Numbered from the stretch's first letter, positions 25,211 through 41,262 are shown. The stretch: 64,000 nt of DNA from Candidatus Heimdallarchaeota archaeon (GCA_019056785.1 DXJV01000084.1:134492-198491); one strand, 5' to 3'. Numbers and translations: made by a program. Notes: a model not told the origin generated them from the sequence alone.

Positions 25211-26014
25211 TTGACCAGCAAAAGGGATCTGACATCACTCCCCTCACTAATGGTTCCAGGACAACCGGCAATCCTATTCAATGATAAGAAAAAAGGAAGA
25301 ACATTAGTAGTCGCAGACCTGCACATTGGCTATGTCTACAATCAAAATAAAAGAGGGATAATTATCCCGATGGCGAGAACAGCAGAAGAAGAACTGCTGA
25401 AGCTGGTAAAAAAACTCGAGCCAAGAAGAGTCATTATTTTAGGCGATTTTAAAGATGAAATTTATGGCGCGGGCAACCCGTTAACCGGCAGAATTTTTTC
25501 TTTTATCAAAAAAATGACAGCAAAAGCACGATTAACAATTATCAAAGGCAACCATGATGGCAATCTCGAAGATTTTTTGAGTAAGCCAATTGAAATTATC
25601 CCTGCAACCGGAATGACATTAGAATTACTCGAGGGAATAAAAATAGGGCTCTGGCATGGACATGCAACACCAGCACTTGATGTTATGAATGCTCAAATAA
25701 CTATTTCAGCACACGCACACCCCGCATATAGTTTTCGAGATCAATTGGGAACAAAAATAACAGAAAAAGTGTGGGTGAAAAGCAAATGGCGCGAAGAAAC
25801 AAAAAAAAGAACCCACATTATTATGCCGGCGTTCAACCCTTACATTGATGGTTTCTCGGTAGATGGGGAGTTCTTTAAAAAGAATGTAACAATGCGTGAA
25901 GGGGTGGAGTTCTTGAAAGCAGAAGTTTTCACACTCGAGGGAGTCCTCTTAGGAACCATTGAAGAACTGCAAGAAGAACGAAGAAAAATAGAAGAGAAAA
26001 AAGAAACCAGATGA
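25211..26014 (+). CDS. Calcineurin-like metallophosphoesterase (archaeal COG1407-like)
   Basis: Motifs ADLHIG, ILGD, KGNHD, HGH, HAHP and MPAFN. Confidence 0.9.
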   Translation: MTSKRDLTSLPSLMVPGQPAILFNDKKKGRTLVVADLHIGYVYNQNKRGIIIPMARTAEEELLKLVKKLEPRRVIILGDFKDEIYGAGNPLTGRIFSFIKKMTAKARLTIIKGNHDGNLEDFLSKPIEIIPATGMTLELLEGIKIGLWHGHATPALDVMNAQITISAHAHPAYSFRDQLGTKITEKVWVKSKWREETKKRTHIIMPAFNPYIDGFSVDGEFFKKNVTMREGVEFLKAEVFTLEGVLLGTIEELQEERRKIEEKKETR

Positions 26015-26019
26015 AAAGC

Positions 26020-27405
26020 TCACTTCTTTCCATTTGCCCGAGCAACCACCACACCAGAAATCGCACTCTGCATAACGCCACGGGTAATGCCCGCACCATC
26101 ACCAATGAAGTATAAATTCTTGACGGTTTTCGACTCGAGATTTTTTGTCATATCAATACGAATACTATACAACTTGATCTCAGGAGCATAGATAAGTGTA
26201 TTTGGCCCATCAATCCCAGGCATGATAGCATTAAGGTGAGTAAGAAAGTCTCGCAAGTCACTCATCACTCTACTTGGAATAGCAAAACTAATGTCACCTG
26301 CAATAGCACTCTCGAGTGTAGGTCGAATAACGGAGCGTTTTAATCGCTCAAGGGTTGAACGACGACCGTTTTTCAAATCTTCGAAACGTTGGATAAGAAC
26401 AGAATTTCCACCAGAGAGCATGTTTGCTAAGTTAGCAACATGTTTAGCATAGCGAATGGGTTGCTTGAAGGGTTCTGTGAAATTACACGTGACAAGAATT
26501 GCAAAATTAGTGTTAGGACTATTTACATCAGTCCGGCTTTCACCATTCACACAAGTCGTTTCATCATAACGCTCAGTTGTTACGAATCCGCCAGGACAAA
26601 CACAAAAAGTACGGACATGGTCCTCATAGGTCCTTGTGACATATTCAATTTTGAACTCGTAAAGATTGTCAGTAAATTCTTTGCAATACTCATTTAAGGT
26701 TTCTACGCGAACACCGATATCAACGGCATTATTGGAGTAAGAAATTCCAAGTCGATTGCATTCGGCTTTCAACCAGTTTGTCCCGCCACGACCAACAGCC
26801 ATGACGACCTTTTTCGCCTTGTATTCTCGACCATCGGCAGTTCGGACGCCGATCGCAACACCATCTTTCACTAGAATTTTATCGACTTTCTTCCGTAAAA
26901 CAATGTTGATCTTATCTTTTAGATATTGATAGATGTTTTCCATAATTGCGGAAGCATTATCTGTTCCGAGATGGCGAATGGGGTAAGTGACGAGTTTCAT
27001 GTTTTCTTTCCGGCATAGGCTTTCCATACGCTCGACAAACTCAGGGTCAGGGCTAAAATAGCGATCACCACCATTACTAAAACTGAGAATGGTTTGATCA
27101 ACATATTCAATTAATTCAGAAAGCTCTTTCATACTGATAAAGTCGCTCATCCAACCGCCAACAGTGCCGGTGACATCTTTGGTGATTTTACCGTCGGACC
27201 AAGCACCGGCACCACCAAAACCACTGGTTATGTCACAAGTCTTGCAGGCAACGCATTCAATATTTTGCTCACGACGAGGACAATACCTTTTGGTAACTTC
27301 TTTACCCCGGTCAATGAGAGTAATATTAGTAACGCCTTGTTTAACTAATTCTAAAGCGCAAAAGATCCCTGCAGGACCTGCACCAACAATTACAAAGTCA
27401 TCCAT
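26020..27405 (-). CDS. FAD-dependent oxidoreductase (COG2509-like) with N-terminal Cys cluster
   Basis: Motifs GAGPAG, CxxCxxC, GFGGAGAWSDGK, VDIGVRVE, RTFCVCPGG and GDGAGITRG. Confidence 0.9.
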   Translation of the reverse strand: MDDFVIVGAGPAGIFCALELVKQGVTNITLIDRGKEVTKRYCPRREQNIECVACKTCDITSGFGGAGAWSDGKITKDVTGTVGGWMSDFISMKELSELIEYVDQTILSFSNGGDRYFSPDPEFVERMESLCRKENMKLVTYPIRHLGTDNASAIMENIYQYLKDKINIVLRKKVDKILVKDGVAIGVRTADGREYKAKKVVMAVGRGGTNWLKAECNRLGISYSNNAVDIGVRVETLNEYCKEFTDNLYEFKIEYVTRTYEDHVRTFCVCPGGFVTTERYDETTCVNGESRTDVNSPNTNFAILVTCNFTEPFKQPIRYAKHVANLANMLSGGNSVLIQRFEDLKNGRRSTLERLKRSVIRPTLESAIAGDISFAIPSRVMSDLRDFLTHLNAIMPGIDGPNTLIYAPEIKLYSIRIDMTKNLESKTVKNLYFIGDGAGITRGVMQSAISGVVVARANGKK

Positions 27406-27477
27406 CAGTTCTTACCTAGCTGTCATTTTTTTACTCAATAAAAAATTATTCGCTAACTATTATAAATGAAAGCAAAA

Positions 27478-39836: not shown

Positions 39837-40223
39837 ATGACTAAATTTTGCGGAAATTGTGGCGAAGCGAATGTTGATGATGCACAATATTGTGCCAACT
39901 GTGGCGAGCTTTTAACCGTTGCTACCAATGCGACTTCTAAAGAAACCCTTACACAAAACGAGGGAAGGGAATCACCAAAGGAAGAGAAAAAAACACTTTA
40001 TCGTTCTCGTACTAAAAAGATCCTTTCAGGTCTTTCTGCCGGTCTTGCTGATTATTTCGGTCTTGATGTTTCTCTCGTCCGCTTCTTATGGCTTGCTTCA
40101 TTCGTTATCACTTCTGGTGCAACACTTGTTGGCTATATTGTTTTGGCTGCAATTACACCCCTCGAACCTCTCGACGAAAGCAATGAGGATATTAAGAACA
40201 TAAAAAAAACCACAACTACTTGA
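39837..40223 (+). CDS. Zinc-ribbon + PspC domain protein
   Basis: FCGNCG...YCANCG; LYRSRTKKILSGLSAGLADYFGLDVSLVR is a PspC signature. Confidence 0.9.
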   Translation: MTKFCGNCGEANVDDAQYCANCGELLTVATNATSKETLTQNEGRESPKEEKKTLYRSRTKKILSGLSAGLADYFGLDVSLVRFLWLASFVITSGATLVGYIVLAAITPLEPLDESNEDIKNIKKTTTT

Positions 40224-40319
40224 TTGAACTGTTCTCTTTTTTTTTCTCATTTTTTTCATCCCAAACTTCAAAGAACCAAATATCAAGATTCTTAGAAACT
40301 CTTTTTATTTGCACCGCTG

Positions 40320-41084
40320 TTGGATAGTCATCTGGAAGTGTCCTCTTTGGAAAGCGTAGAAGACTATGTTATTGTTACCAAAGGTTTGACGAAGGAATAT
40401 CCATTTGGTGGAACCACCATTAAAGCCCTTAATGGAGTTGATTTTGCCATTAAAAAGGGCGAGTATGTTACTATTGTCGGCCCTTCTGGCAGTGGAAAGA
40501 CTACTTTTCTAAATCTCATTGGGACCATTGATTCGCCCACCTCAGGAGAGATCTATTACAATGGACGAAAACTCTCAGAAATGACAAATAAAGAGGTTCG
40601 TGAGCTCCGGCGAACAAAAATCGGTTTTGTTTTTCAAGCCTTCAATTTGCTTGAAATTTTAACAGCCGCTGAGAACATTGCTCTTCCAATGATTATTAAC
40701 GGTACATCTGCACGCGAACGAGAAGAACGTGTGCAAGAACTTCTCGAGATTATTGGTTTACCTGATCGTGGCGATCACTTCCCCATGGAGCTAAGCGGTG
40801 GGCAACGGCAACGGATAGCCATTGCTAGGGCCCTTGCTAATAAACCGGAAGTTATTTTGCTTGATGAGCCTACGGGGCAGTTGGACAGCAACACTTCACG
40901 TGAGATCATGGATTACCTGCTAAAGATTAACAAAGAAGAACAAGTTACTCTTATTGTTGTTACGCATGAGGACCTCATTGCTGCTGCAGCCAAACGCCCA
41001 ATGACGATCATTGATGGTAAACTCTATGAGGGCATCCTCGAATCTTTCTTAAATATTAAGGCTATTGAAAAAGGGCTACTCTAA
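40320..41084 (+). CDS. ABC transporter ATP-binding protein (LolD/MacB-type)
   Basis: Motifs [31 protein letters not shown] and VTH. Confidence 0.95.
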
Positions 41085-41262
41085 CAAACCCCAGTATACC
41101 ACAGGAAAAACATCGGTGAATAGAGTTCTGCCGGTATTCTTTTTCATCCTTTCTTCTCAACCTTCTCAAAGTGTAATAAAAACTAATGATAGTTACAATT
41201 TAAATTTCAATGGGACACAGAATAAATAAAAAAAAAGGGATTCATACTTCTACTTCAAACTC

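What the first reader, a model, noticed from the sequence alone, without database searches (positions are those of the whole stretch)
26000..41100. Sharp, symmetric strand-composition inversion centred inside the EF-1alpha gene (about 32,388): candidate chromosomal landmark
Seen: left of about 32,388 the + strand is A/purine-rich and T-poor, and right of it the + strand is T/pyrimidine-rich. All genes from 26,020 to 38,319 lie on the same (-) strand, so gene orientation does not explain the switch. It is resolved to a few codons: 12 of the first 21 EF-1alpha codons end in A (gca aaa cca cta gta ata ata gga gta gga aaa aca), but only 2 of the next 21 do. After that point the Gly codons I read are GGT/GGC, and Lys/Glu are mostly AAG/GAG. 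The bias is strongest at the centre, fades over roughly 5-10 kb, and appears to shift protein composition (L/F/S-rich left, K/E-rich right). Inference: a fixed site imposes a polar mutational or selective field. Candidates are a point origin or fork-trap/terminus with no adjacent cdc6 or ORB, or oriented purine motifs guiding a translocase or segregation protein. A weak inverted repeat (ggaataaaaggtgac...gtactttttcc, about 32370-32403) straddles the switch.
Basis: partly seen in the sequence, partly recalled or inferred. Interest (0 to 1): 0.85.

Follow-up and report, generated by a model that had tools for sequence, protein, structure and literature searches.

The report
Extreme strand-skew focus at EF-1alpha start
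The flip in base composition inside the EF-1alpha gene is real and the strongest in this Heimdall-group archaeal genome, but it is one of at least 21 such point-centred 'skew foci', kept at the same genes across the genus and absent from sister genera, so it looks like an undescribed site-anchored DNA process and not a single chromosome landmark.

Summary
Observation confirmed. At about 32,391 the + strand flips from purine-rich to pyrimidine-rich. This is the largest skew switch in the 2.87 Mb assembly. At four-fold sites the left core (27,478-32,154) reads A477 T43 G232 C50 and the right core (34,492-35,735) A3 T75 G14 C51. EF-1alpha holds 173 consecutive purine sites.

The skew follows the DNA strand, not gene direction, and it has also shifted amino-acid composition. 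Independent contigs from four studies span the flip, so it is not a chimeric join.

It is not unique. At least 21 sharp foci exist, nearly all with the same polarity (10 vs 0 at the strictest cut). They lie inside genes, at gene starts and at tRNA genes. The EF-2 focus is present in all six congeners tested and absent from 14 genomes of other genera.

Ribosomal-protein and thermosome genes are unskewed, so expression or codon selection does not explain it. The orc1/cdc6 locus has no focus.

Best reading: a fixed site where DNA is recurrently opened or processed in both directions, producing strand-specific transversion pressure. The mechanism is inferred. Other first readers noted the same pattern elsewhere in this genome.

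The parts
19359..27477 (.). Left shoulder of the skew domain. The + strand is moderately purine-rich at four-fold sites, both in - strand genes and in the three + strand genes at 23,194-26,014.
   Evidence: 1,016 four-fold sites: A446 T186 G242 C142, R = 0.68. Per-gene + strand AT4 is +0.24 to +0.63 whatever the coding strand.
27478..32391 (.). Left core of the focus. The + strand is almost purely purine at synonymous sites. It spans five closely spaced - strand genes: A24 peptidase, DHDPS-family, a small membrane protein, tandem PadR, and EF-1alpha from codon 22 onward.
   Evidence: 802 four-fold sites: A477 T43 G232 C50, R = 0.88. There are 173 consecutive purine sites at 31,069-32,137, the longest run in the genome. 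Purine depletion at codon positions 1+2 relative to orthologues is.
31063..32454 (-). Archaeal-type EF-1alpha gene. The flip lies inside it, between codons 21 and 22, just after the [10 protein letters not shown]-loop codons.
   Evidence: Best PDB matches are archaeal EF-1alpha, E 1e-137. Ten congeners hold orthologues of 82-87% identity.
32389..32394 (.). The flip point (codons 21/22 of EF-1alpha).
   Evidence: 12 of the first 21 codons end in A and 2 of the next 21 do. Independent contigs X1 31,584-32,466 and X2 30,069-32,466 cross it.
32392..32675 (.). The first 21 EF-1alpha codons plus a 221-nt leader/promoter tract that is T-rich on + and A-rich on the sense strand. This is the start of the right-hand polarity.
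   Evidence: 32,455-32,675: T 0.67, A 0.13, R = 0.20. The 200 nt upstream of the start codon hold 130 A on the sense strand, against 98-111 A in all congeners. Only low-complexity T-tract repeats are present.
32676..34334 (-). Two orphan genes of foreign composition (GC3 about 0.6): a secreted or anchored protein and a signal-peptide protein. Probably a recent insertion that has not yet taken on the local skew.
   Evidence: GC3 is 0.60-0.61 against a genome mean of 0.35; + strand AT4 is only -0.47. No Pfam, NCBIfam or PHROG match. No paralogue in the genome. Contigs in X1 and X3 join about 32,547-32,592 to about 34,211-34,406, skipping these genes, at low depth.
34492..35735 (-). Right core of the focus: two overlapping orphan genes rich in K and E. 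The + strand is almost purely pyrimidine at synonymous sites.
   Evidence: 143 four-fold sites: A3 T75 G14 C51, R = 0.12. Coding-strand purine fraction is 0.86-0.90, second and fourth highest in the genome.
35736..36480 (.). A 745-bp stretch with no convincing gene that is not skewed, although it lies inside the right domain.
   Evidence: A 0.31, T 0.28, R = 0.51. No Rfam family or tRNA.
36481..41084 (.). Right shoulder. The + strand is T-rich through three - strand zinc-ribbon membrane paralogues and then through three + strand genes (beta-helix protein, PspC-like protein, ABC ATPase).
   Evidence: 574 four-fold sites: A123 T228 G101 C122, R = 0.39. + strand AT4 is -0.23 to -0.45 for - genes and -0.31 to -0.44 for + genes. 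Synteny with congeners resumes at the ABC ATPase.
32176..32178 (-). In-frame TGA at the invariant Gly of the DxPGH motif of EF-1alpha. This is an assembly-specific glitch, not recoding.
   Evidence: Translation shows DTP*HRDF. None of 10 congeners has a stop there. Contigs of four independent runs read C at 32,178 (codon GGA) and also differ at 32,163, 32,170 and 32,184, which restores the canonical DAPGHRDFV.

Best explanation
The locus is the strongest member of a genus-specific family of fixed 'skew foci'. At each focus, the strand that runs 5'->3' toward the point carries almost only purines at freely variable sites (A about 60-70%, G about 30%). The strand that runs away from the point carries almost only T and C. 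The bias flips sharply at the point and decays over 1-2 kb at typical foci and 5-15 kb here.

Shown: the pattern follows the DNA strand and not genes, transcripts or expression level. It is old enough to have changed amino-acid composition. It is kept at the same genes in sister species.

Inferred: the cause is a strand-asymmetric transversion pressure from a site-anchored, bidirectional DNA transaction that repeatedly leaves one strand single-stranded on each side of the focus. I rate two versions of this highest.

(a) An initiation-type unwinding zone. The strand leaving the focus is the excluded or lagging-strand template. It loses purines, and A is inserted opposite the resulting abasic sites, so purines on that strand become T. 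I put this version at about 0.3.

(b) A recurrent site-specific break or nick whose resection tracts are damaged and refilled. I put this version at about 0.2.

The EF-1alpha focus sits at the junction between a conserved gene row and a variable island. The A-rich leader that all congeners share lies at its centre.
For: Strand-based, not gene-based:
- Coding-sense purine content of neighbouring genes correlates at +0.48 on the same strand and -0.38/-0.39 on opposite strands.
- In the window, + and - strand genes share the + strand sign on each side of the focus.
- Flips occur inside ORFs (EF-1alpha here; C25:16,254; C90 about 52.3-52.6 kb; C16).

Uniform polarity:
- With 60 four-fold sites on each side, sharp purine-to-pyrimidine switches outnumber the reverse 10:0 (dR >= 0.6), 14:3 (>= 0.5) and 21:4 (>= 0.45).
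- Contig ends are A-rich on the outward-pointing strand (p = 0.001), so more foci lie at assembly breaks.
- The averaged profile is R 0.71 within 1 kb and 0.55 by 2-3 kb.

Not expression or codon selection:
- The ribosomal-protein operon and both thermosome genes have ordinary values (0.37-0.54).
- EF-2 in 14 genomes of other genera, including the sister genus with 83% identical protein, has 0.25-0.50. All six congeners tested have 0.03-0.08, with a purine-rich upstream 1.5 kb.

The pressure acts on all positions:
- Codon positions 1+2 of A24, DHDPS, the small protein and PadR are purine-depleted relative to orthologues (for example PadR 0.41-0.45 against 0.55-0.56). Constrained EF-1alpha and genes outside the domain are unchanged.
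- Intergenic DNA follows the same sign.

Real in nature:
- The stretch is held near-identically in runs of at least 7 studies, and contigs span the flip.
- Left synteny is conserved across the genus.
- A diverged strain (X7) differs mostly by transitions, which keep the purine/pyrimidine pattern.

Long-range component:
- + strand skew autocorrelates out to about 50-100 kb. The 165 kb left of the focus are consistently A>T.
- Genes weakly prefer the T-rich strand (r about -0.27).

Composition on the leaving strand (T much greater than C, which is much greater than G and A) is what purine loss plus A insertion would give. That step rests on established chemistry and is my inference.
Against: - No orc1/cdc6 gene and no repeated ORB-like element lies at the focus. 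The one clear orc1/cdc6 locus (C76) shows no focus.
- No word is shared by the 21 foci.
- The decay length of 1-10 kb is far shorter than the spacing of about 100 kb, unlike known replication skew.
- A bias of at least about 80:1 at neutral sites is far stronger than any replication skew I know of (own knowledge).
- Non-coding DNA is only about 0.3 as skewed as flanking four-fold sites, and a 745-bp non-coding stretch inside the domain is unskewed. A purely neutral mutational field would not predict this unless such DNA is constrained or young.
- Right of the focus the skew returns to weakly positive after about 15 kb, so this is not a simple replichore boundary.
- The two sub-models predict damage to opposite strands and base classes. 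Nothing here tells them apart.
Confidence: 0.5

Rival explanations
1. Transcription-associated asymmetry around strong, bidirectional promoters. The non-template strand of very heavy transcription becomes pyrimidine-rich downstream (EF-1alpha and its read-through operon). Divergent antisense transcription does the same to the other strand upstream.
For: Several foci sit 0-220 nt inside or at the start of a gene transcribed away from the focus: EF-1alpha, EF-2, the E2 gene on C47, the C45 gene and two on C90. Two foci sit at tRNA genes. The left core coincides with five closely spaced co-directional genes downstream of the EF-1alpha start. Prokaryotic promoters, archaeal ones included, are reported to drive divergent transcription often (PMC10268837 abstract).
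Against: The ribosomal-protein operon and the thermosomes show nothing. Right of the focus, 6 kb of - strand genes are purine-rich in their own sense strand. At C25:21,753 both flanking genes are transcribed toward the focus, and the T-rich domain runs 5 kb beyond a tRNA gene of about 100 nt. Other foci lie mid-gene or at 3' ends. The sister genus has the same EF-2 without the skew.
Confidence: 0.12
2. Selection, not mutation. Purine-rich strands pointing at the foci act as an oriented signal, in the manner of KOPS or Chi, for a translocase, helicase, primase or segregation machine. Alternatively, the purine/pyrimidine tracts give the DNA a needed physical property.
For: Foci keep their position across species. 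Coding synonymous sites are more skewed than non-coding DNA. Between strains, transitions are free while the purine/pyrimidine class is kept. Polarity is uniform.
Against: No enriched oriented word at the foci beyond A-rich composition. The bias is compositional at essentially every free site, which is more than a motif signal needs. It has dragged amino-acid composition and sped up divergence of weakly constrained proteins, which looks like a cost. Amplitude at a given focus varies widely between species: the EF-1alpha focus is absent in G008 and G010 while their EF-2 focus is stronger.
Confidence: 0.15
3. A classical unique landmark: the chromosome's replication origin or terminus/dif region.
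For: This is the largest switch in the assembly. 165 kb of consistent A>T lies on the left. T>A on the strand leaving the point matches the usual leading-strand sign (own knowledge; the review PMC3269012 was listed but not read).
Against: At least 20 other foci share the polarity. There is no orc1/cdc6 gene nearby, and the orc1/cdc6 locus is unskewed. The skew returns to weakly positive 15 kb to the right. G and C follow purine/pyrimidine asymmetry, not the usual keto/amino asymmetry. The focus is absent in congeners G008 and G010 with the same gene order.
Confidence: 0.08
4. A chance juxtaposition or artefact: a highly codon-biased EF-1alpha next to foreign K/E-rich genes, a recombination or rearrangement junction, or a chimeric assembly.
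For: The region right of the focus is a variable island with orphan genes and two GC3-rich genes. No listed contig bridges the T-tract at 32,467-32,710. The assembly has a local glitch 215 nt away, the TGA.
Against: The flip lies inside EF-1alpha and is crossed by independent contigs. The T-rich leader is joined to the 34.2-34.4 kb region in two runs. The skew also covers conserved syntenic genes on both sides and genes of both orientations. The same kind of flip recurs at least 20 times with one polarity and at EF-2 in six species from different assemblies. Gene order left of the focus is unchanged across the genus.
Confidence: 0.04

Closest known systems
Skew jumps at replication initiation zones (borders of human skew 'N-domains'; skew proportional to fork polarity; PMC3320577, read; PMC2764438, listed)
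   Same: Many sites per genome where strand composition changes sign abruptly. All have one polarity, with the bias fading away from the jump. The pattern is independent of gene direction and is attributed there to different mutation rates on leading and lagging strands.
   Different: There the amplitude is a few percent, the domains are megabase-sized with a linear decline to the next origin, and the skew is T>A with G>C. Here the bias is near-absolute, decays within 1-10 kb, is of purine/pyrimidine type, and is weaker in non-coding DNA. No replication data exist for this organism.
Single-switch strand-coordinated mutation clusters from bidirectional 5'->3' resection at a double-strand break (yeast; PMC6786661, read)
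   Same: Point-centred geometry on a kilobase scale, with a switch of the affected strand at the break. Reading the top strand, pyrimidine (C) changes lie on the 5' side and purine (G) changes on the 3' side. That is the same polarity as here, where pyrimidines are missing on the left and purines on the right.
   Different: Those are single somatic events caused by a cytosine deaminase or an alkylating agent and affect C/G only. Here the state is fixed, species-wide and conserved across species. It affects all four bases and needs pyrimidine-to-purine transversions, for which I know no matching lesion chemistry.
Archaeal Orc1/Cdc6-ORB replication origins and chromosome-scale skew (own knowledge; review PMC3269012 listed, not read)
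   Same: An AT-rich, easily melted tract at the centre. A highly expressed gene (EF-1alpha) is transcribed away from the point. T>A on the strand leaving the point.
   Different: No adjacent orc1/cdc6, no ORB repeats, dozens of sites, local decay, and the orc1/cdc6 locus of this genome is unskewed.
Time-dependent skew gradients of vertebrate mitochondrial DNA (strand-displacement replication; own knowledge)
   Same: Very strong skew at four-fold sites that grades with position. It is explained there by how long one strand stays single-stranded.
   Different: That skew is driven by deamination (C to T and A to G, keto/amino type), runs one way along a small genome, and does not flip in a point-symmetric way.

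Membership tests
Archaeal Orc1/Cdc6-dependent replication origin | An orc1/cdc6 gene adjacent to the origin | tested here: not met
   Cdc6_C matches occur only at C76:7,924-8,196 and, below the cut-off, on C3. None is on C84. The genes around the focus are EF-1alpha, PadR and orphans.
Archaeal Orc1/Cdc6-dependent replication origin | Repeated ORB or mini-ORB elements flanking an AT-rich unwinding element | tested here: not met
   An AT-rich tract is present (32,455-32,675, T 0.67). Only low-complexity T-tract repeats and no significant inverted repeats were found. No word is shared among the 21 foci.
Archaeal Orc1/Cdc6-dependent replication origin | A copy-number (marker-frequency) peak, or mapped initiation | not testable with these tools
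   Only Logan contigs were available. Their depth is one figure per contig.
Unique chromosomal origin/terminus skew switch | One or two switches per replicon, with the sign kept over the whole replichore | tested here: not met
   21 or more sharp switches. Right of the focus the sign returns after about 15 kb. Autocorrelation is lost beyond about 100 kb.
Eukaryote-type skew jumps at initiation zones (N-domain borders) | Abrupt sign inversions, all of one polarity, independent of gene orientation | tested here: met
   10:0, 14:3 and 21:4 in favour of one polarity. Opposite-strand neighbours anticorrelate.
Eukaryote-type skew jumps at initiation zones (N-domain borders) | Skew declines steadily to the next jump and is equally present in intergenic DNA | tested here: not met
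   Decay within 1-10 kb against a spacing of about 100 kb. The intergenic slope is about 0.3 of that at four-fold sites.
Transcription-associated strand asymmetry | The sign follows the sense strand and scales with expression | tested here: not met
   The sign follows the DNA strand. The ribosomal-protein operon and thermosomes are unskewed. Convergent genes flank the focus at C25:21,753.
Translational codon bias of highly expressed genes | The same preferred codons in other highly expressed genes and in orthologues of related taxa | tested here: not met
   Ribosomal proteins are at 0.38-0.54. EF-2 of 14 genomes of other genera is at 0.25-0.50, against 0.03-0.08 within the genus. Neighbouring non-translation genes share the bias.
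Rearrangement/inversion junction or chimeric join | Broken synteny or unsupported assembly at the switch | tested here: not met
   Gene order from EF-1alpha leftward is identical in congeners. Independent contigs cross the flip. The bridge over the T-tract at 32,467-32,710 was not seen among the listed contigs.
Resection-type single-switch mutation clusters | Pyrimidine-coordinated changes on the 5' side and purine-coordinated changes on the 3' side of a break, on the top strand | tested here: inconclusive
   The polarity of the missing bases agrees (PMC6786661). The direction of the underlying substitutions could not be polarised, and no break site is known.

The most novel reading that the evidence does not exclude
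This Heimdall-group genus replicates, or otherwise opens, its chromosome from dozens of fixed, evolutionarily conserved initiation zones about 100 kb apart, independent of the orc1/cdc6-linked origin. The fork or unwinding polarity is recorded in the genome as near-absolute purine/pyrimidine skew. That would be a eukaryote-like multi-site programme that can be read straight from sequence in a close relative of eukaryotes.
Probability: 0.2. Interest if true: 0.92.

Novelty: new variant of a known kind. Interest (0 to 1): 0.8.

Why it matters
Strand skew is the standard sequence read-out of how a chromosome is copied and repaired. Here a genus of Asgard (Heimdall-group) archaea carries dozens of sharp, point-symmetric foci of one polarity and near-absolute amplitude. 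The foci stay at the same genes across species and are absent from the sister genus. I found no description of this in the library searched.

Whatever makes the foci is strong enough to override codon choice and to reshape proteins. Candidates are local initiation of DNA synthesis, recurrent programmed breaks or nicks, or selection for oriented strands. The positions of the foci give exact coordinates for experiments on replication and recombination in a lineage where almost nothing is known.

There are also practical consequences:
- The foci break assemblies.
- They open long spurious antisense ORFs.
- They distort codon-usage and horizontal-transfer statistics.
- They could mislead phylogenies built on the affected genes.

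Tried and rejected
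- TGA recoding (code 25-like) of the EF-1alpha Gly codon. Rejected: 10 congeners have no stop, and four independent runs read GGA.
- Translational or expression-linked codon bias. Rejected by ribosomal-protein and thermosome genes and by EF-2 of other genera.
- Two mRNA 'codon classes' tied to gene function. The pyrimidine-class and purine-class genes are functionally mixed, and opposite-strand neighbours anticorrelate.
- A repeated module or mobile element at the foci. The four genes right of the focus have no paralogues and no phage family match. No shared k-mer was found.
- The inverted repeat at 32,370-32,403: at chance level.
- An RNA gene at the focus or in the unskewed 745 bp: none found.
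- A focus at the orc1/cdc6 locus: none.
- A genus-specific loss of a repair or translesion gene. The Y-family polymerase and NucS are present both inside and outside the genus. The AGOG search rang in no genome, controls included, and says nothing.
- Literature searches for a prior description in Asgard or other archaea found none.
- Depth from read laying cannot show a copy-number peak, because the runs are kept as contigs.
- A preference of genes for the T-rich strand is only weak, and it reverses in the most extreme bin.
- No listed contig covers 32,467-32,710. This is a gap in the listing, not evidence of a break.

Full report
**What the window is.** The window is the last 64 kb of the longest contig (C84, 198 kb) of a 2.87 Mb, 102-contig metagenome-assembled genome. 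Same-genus records are titled Candidatus Heimdallarchaeota, an Asgard lineage.

The genes around the finding, all on the - strand from 26,020 to 38,370, are:
- an FAD-dependent protein
- an archaeal A24 peptidase
- a DHDPS-family aldolase
- a small membrane protein
- a tandem PadR regulator
- EF-1alpha
- four orphan genes
- three zinc-ribbon membrane paralogues

Three + strand genes follow: a beta-helix protein, a PspC-like protein and an ABC ATPase. EF-1alpha is a bona fide archaeal EF-1alpha.

- All-site AT skew of the + strand goes from +0.2/+0.4 (28-32 kb) to -0.2/-0.42 (32-36 kb).
- With 4 kb on each side the step of 0.636 is the largest of 22,607 positions in the assembly.
- At four-fold degenerate sites the step is 1.33 (left +0.83, right -0.50), again the maximum.
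- The left core (27,478-32,154) reads A477 T43 G232 C50 on the + strand. The right core (34,492-35,735) reads A3 T75 G14 C51.
- EF-1alpha holds 173 consecutive four-fold sites with a purine on the + strand, the longest run in the genome.
The flip lies between codons 21 and 22 of EF-1alpha, at about 32,391.
- The bias fades over roughly 15 kb on the left and 9 kb on the right.

**It is a property of the DNA strand, not of genes.**
- In the window, the + strand genes at 23-26 kb and 38.4-41 kb carry the same + strand sign as the - strand genes beside them.
- Genome-wide, the coding-sense purine content of adjacent genes correlates at +0.48 when they share a strand and at -0.38/-0.39 when they do not.
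- The pyrimidine-ending and purine-ending gene sets are functionally mixed.
- The ribosomal-protein operon and both thermosome genes are ordinary. High expression or translational selection is therefore not the cause.
- The pressure also reaches non-synonymous positions. In A24, DHDPS, the small protein and PadR, codon positions 1+2 are purine-depleted relative to orthologues (PadR 0.41-0.45 against 0.55-0.56). These proteins are somewhat more diverged than expected. EF-1alpha and genes outside the domain are unchanged.

**It is not an artefact or a junction.**
- The stretch occurs near-identically in sediment and hydrothermal metagenomes of at least seven studies.
- Contigs of independent runs cross the flip (X1 31,584-32,466; X2 30,069-32,466).
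- Two runs join the T-rich leader to 34.2-34.4 kb, skipping the two GC3-rich genes. Those genes therefore look like a recent insertion.
- No listed contig bridges the homopolymer-rich tract at 32,467-32,710.
- Gene order from EF-1alpha leftward is the same in all congeners examined.
- The in-frame TGA at the invariant Gly of DxPGH is a glitch of this assembly. Ten congeners have no stop. All four runs read GGA and also differ at three nearby positions, which restores the canonical motif.

**It is not unique.**
- A scan with 60 four-fold sites on each side finds 21 sharp purine-to-pyrimidine switches against 4 of the reverse kind. The counts are 14:3 at a stricter cut and 10:0 at the strictest.
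- This polarity does not change under reverse complement. In every case the strand running toward the point is purine-rich.
- The profile is a sawtooth: a gradual rise, a sharp flip, then a gradual decay.
- On average R is 0.71 within 1 kb and 0.55 by 2-3 kb. The window's focus is much broader.
- Foci lie inside ORFs (a Rab-like gene, a ClC gene, ppdK), at gene starts (EF-1alpha, EF-2, an E2 gene, a dehydrogenase), at two intron-bearing tRNA genes, and at the 3' ends of three Lrp/AsnC-like genes.
- Contig ends are A-rich on the outward-pointing strand (p = 0.001), with about ten strong cases. More foci are therefore hidden at assembly breaks, plausibly because their homopolymer tracts break assemblies.
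- Other first readers of this scan noted the same pattern on other pieces of this genome. I re-measured several of those places.

**It is conserved in position and specific to the genus.**
- At EF-1alpha, the + strand AT skew of EF-1alpha plus PadR is +0.67 to +0.80 in G005 and G004, with the opposite sign in the first upstream gene.
- It is weaker in G003 and G007, and absent in G008 and G010 and in three other families.
- These species are roughly equidistant (RNA polymerase subunits 88-90% identical).
- At EF-2, all six congeners tested have 0.03-0.08 purines at four-fold sites in the first 250 codons and a purine-rich upstream 1.5 kb. In G008 and G010 the bias covers the whole gene.
- Fourteen genomes of other genera have 0.25-0.50. 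They include the sister genus, whose EF-2 is 83% identical.
- Within the genomes sampled, the phenomenon is therefore confined to this genus. It is anchored to particular sites, and its strength varies by site and by species.

**What it is not.**
- The one clear orc1/cdc6 locus (C76) has no focus.
- The focus has no ORB-like repeats, and the proposed inverted repeat is at chance level.
- The 21 foci share no word beyond A-rich composition.
- No RNA family or tRNA lies at this focus.
- The genes to its right are orphans without paralogues or phage matches.

**Mechanism (inferred).** The composition of the strand leaving the focus is T much greater than C, which is much greater than G and A. A is avoided even where the only synonymous alternative is G. 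Transitions between strains are frequent while the purine/pyrimidine class is kept. This points to strongly directional transversions.

Two geometries fit the polarity.

- (a) The leaving strand is the one exposed. It would be the excluded or lagging-strand template of bidirectional unwinding from the focus, or the strand left after 3'->5' removal of its partner. Purine loss followed by insertion of A opposite abasic sites would turn its purines into T. This matches the observed end state and rests on common chemistry (own knowledge).
- (b) The strand pointing toward the focus is the one exposed, as after 5'->3' resection at a recurrent break. The polarity then matches the single-switch clusters of yeast, with C changes on the 5' side and G changes on the 3' side (PMC6786661). 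The kilobase scale fits resection tracts. But pyrimidine-to-purine changes would be needed, and I know no matching chemistry.

A replication-type reading gains some support:
- The + strand skew keeps its sign over 50-100 kb.
- Genes weakly prefer the T-rich strand.
- The pattern resembles the one-polarity skew jumps at human initiation zones, where skew is taken to be proportional to fork polarity (PMC3320577).

Several observations weigh against any simple neutral-mutation account:
- The amplitude is near-absolute.
- The decay is short.
- Non-coding DNA is only about 0.3 as skewed as neighbouring four-fold sites.
- A 745-bp non-coding stretch inside the domain is unskewed.

Selection for oriented purine strands therefore stays open. 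A quick check for a genus-specific repair-gene difference found none.

**Verdict.** The reading as a single chromosomal landmark is not.

The locus is the flagship of a genus-wide, position-conserved family of extreme skew foci. I found no description of it in the library searched. The cause is unresolved. My odds are:
- about 0.5 for a site-anchored bidirectional DNA-processing event (initiation-type unwinding about 0.3, break or nick processing about 0.2)
- 0.15 for selection on oriented strands
- 0.12 for transcription
- 0.08 for a classical origin or terminus
- 0.04 for juxtaposition or artefact
- the remainder for something not considered here

Noticed in passing
window 32163-32184 (EF-1alpha codons around DxPGH): The assembly has four substitutions within 22 bp, including an in-frame TGA at the invariant Gly. 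Contigs of four independent studies all read the canonical sequence (GGA; DAPGHRDFV). It looks like a local consensus error in the MAG, near a place where other assemblies' contigs end.
   Followed up: yes
window 32676-34334: Two orphan genes have GC3 of about 0.6 in a genome with GC3 of about 0.35. One ends in a hydrophobic anchor plus a basic tail, and the other starts with a signal peptide. Low-depth contigs in two runs join the flanks without them, which suggests an insertion polymorphism in the population.
   Followed up: partly
window 30985-31866 (+) and 31395-31808, 30948-31376 (-): Long spurious ORFs overlap EF-1alpha, including a 293-aa antisense ORF. They are a by-product of the absence of A-ending codons, which removes stops from the aligned antisense frame. 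Gene callers may be misled at skew foci.
   Followed up: no
window 30191-31036: The tandem PadR regulator has an F/L/S-rich N-terminal extension of about 75 aa that reads like translated pyrimidine-rich DNA. The true start may lie further downstream.
   Followed up: no
window 36481-38370: Three tandem paralogues (33-45% identical) each encode an N-terminal zinc ribbon and a C-terminal membrane domain. More distant copies lie on C54, C99, C92 and C5.
   Followed up: partly
G000 C32:68043-69350: A second EF-1alpha-family gene, 37-39% identical to the window's. Congeners and another family of the class carry a counterpart. It may be an aRF3/HBS1-like paralogue and was not characterised.
   Followed up: no
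G000 C25:~21700-21850 and C88:~52980-53130: Two skew foci are centred on tRNA genes that appear to carry introns; one of them seems to have more than one.
   Followed up: no
G000 C70:39467-40021, C11:~152500-152760, C58 right end (~12100-12400): Three foci flip within the last ~15 codons of homologous small Lrp/AsnC-like genes. At the C58 end this is followed by a T-rich tract and the GC-rich 3' end of a - strand surface-protein gene, the same layout as right of the EF-1alpha focus.
   Followed up: partly
window 35736-36480: A 745-bp stretch with no gene, RNA family or tRNA, and unskewed, lies in the middle of a strongly skewed domain. It may be young DNA or a decayed gene.
   Followed up: partly
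whole genome vs congeners: This species has much higher GC at four-fold sites (about 0.35) than its congeners (0.15-0.2 around the EF-1alpha locus), so its overall mutational regime also differs.
   Followed up: no
G000 C98 right end: This contig ends in a CRISPR array.
   Followed up: no
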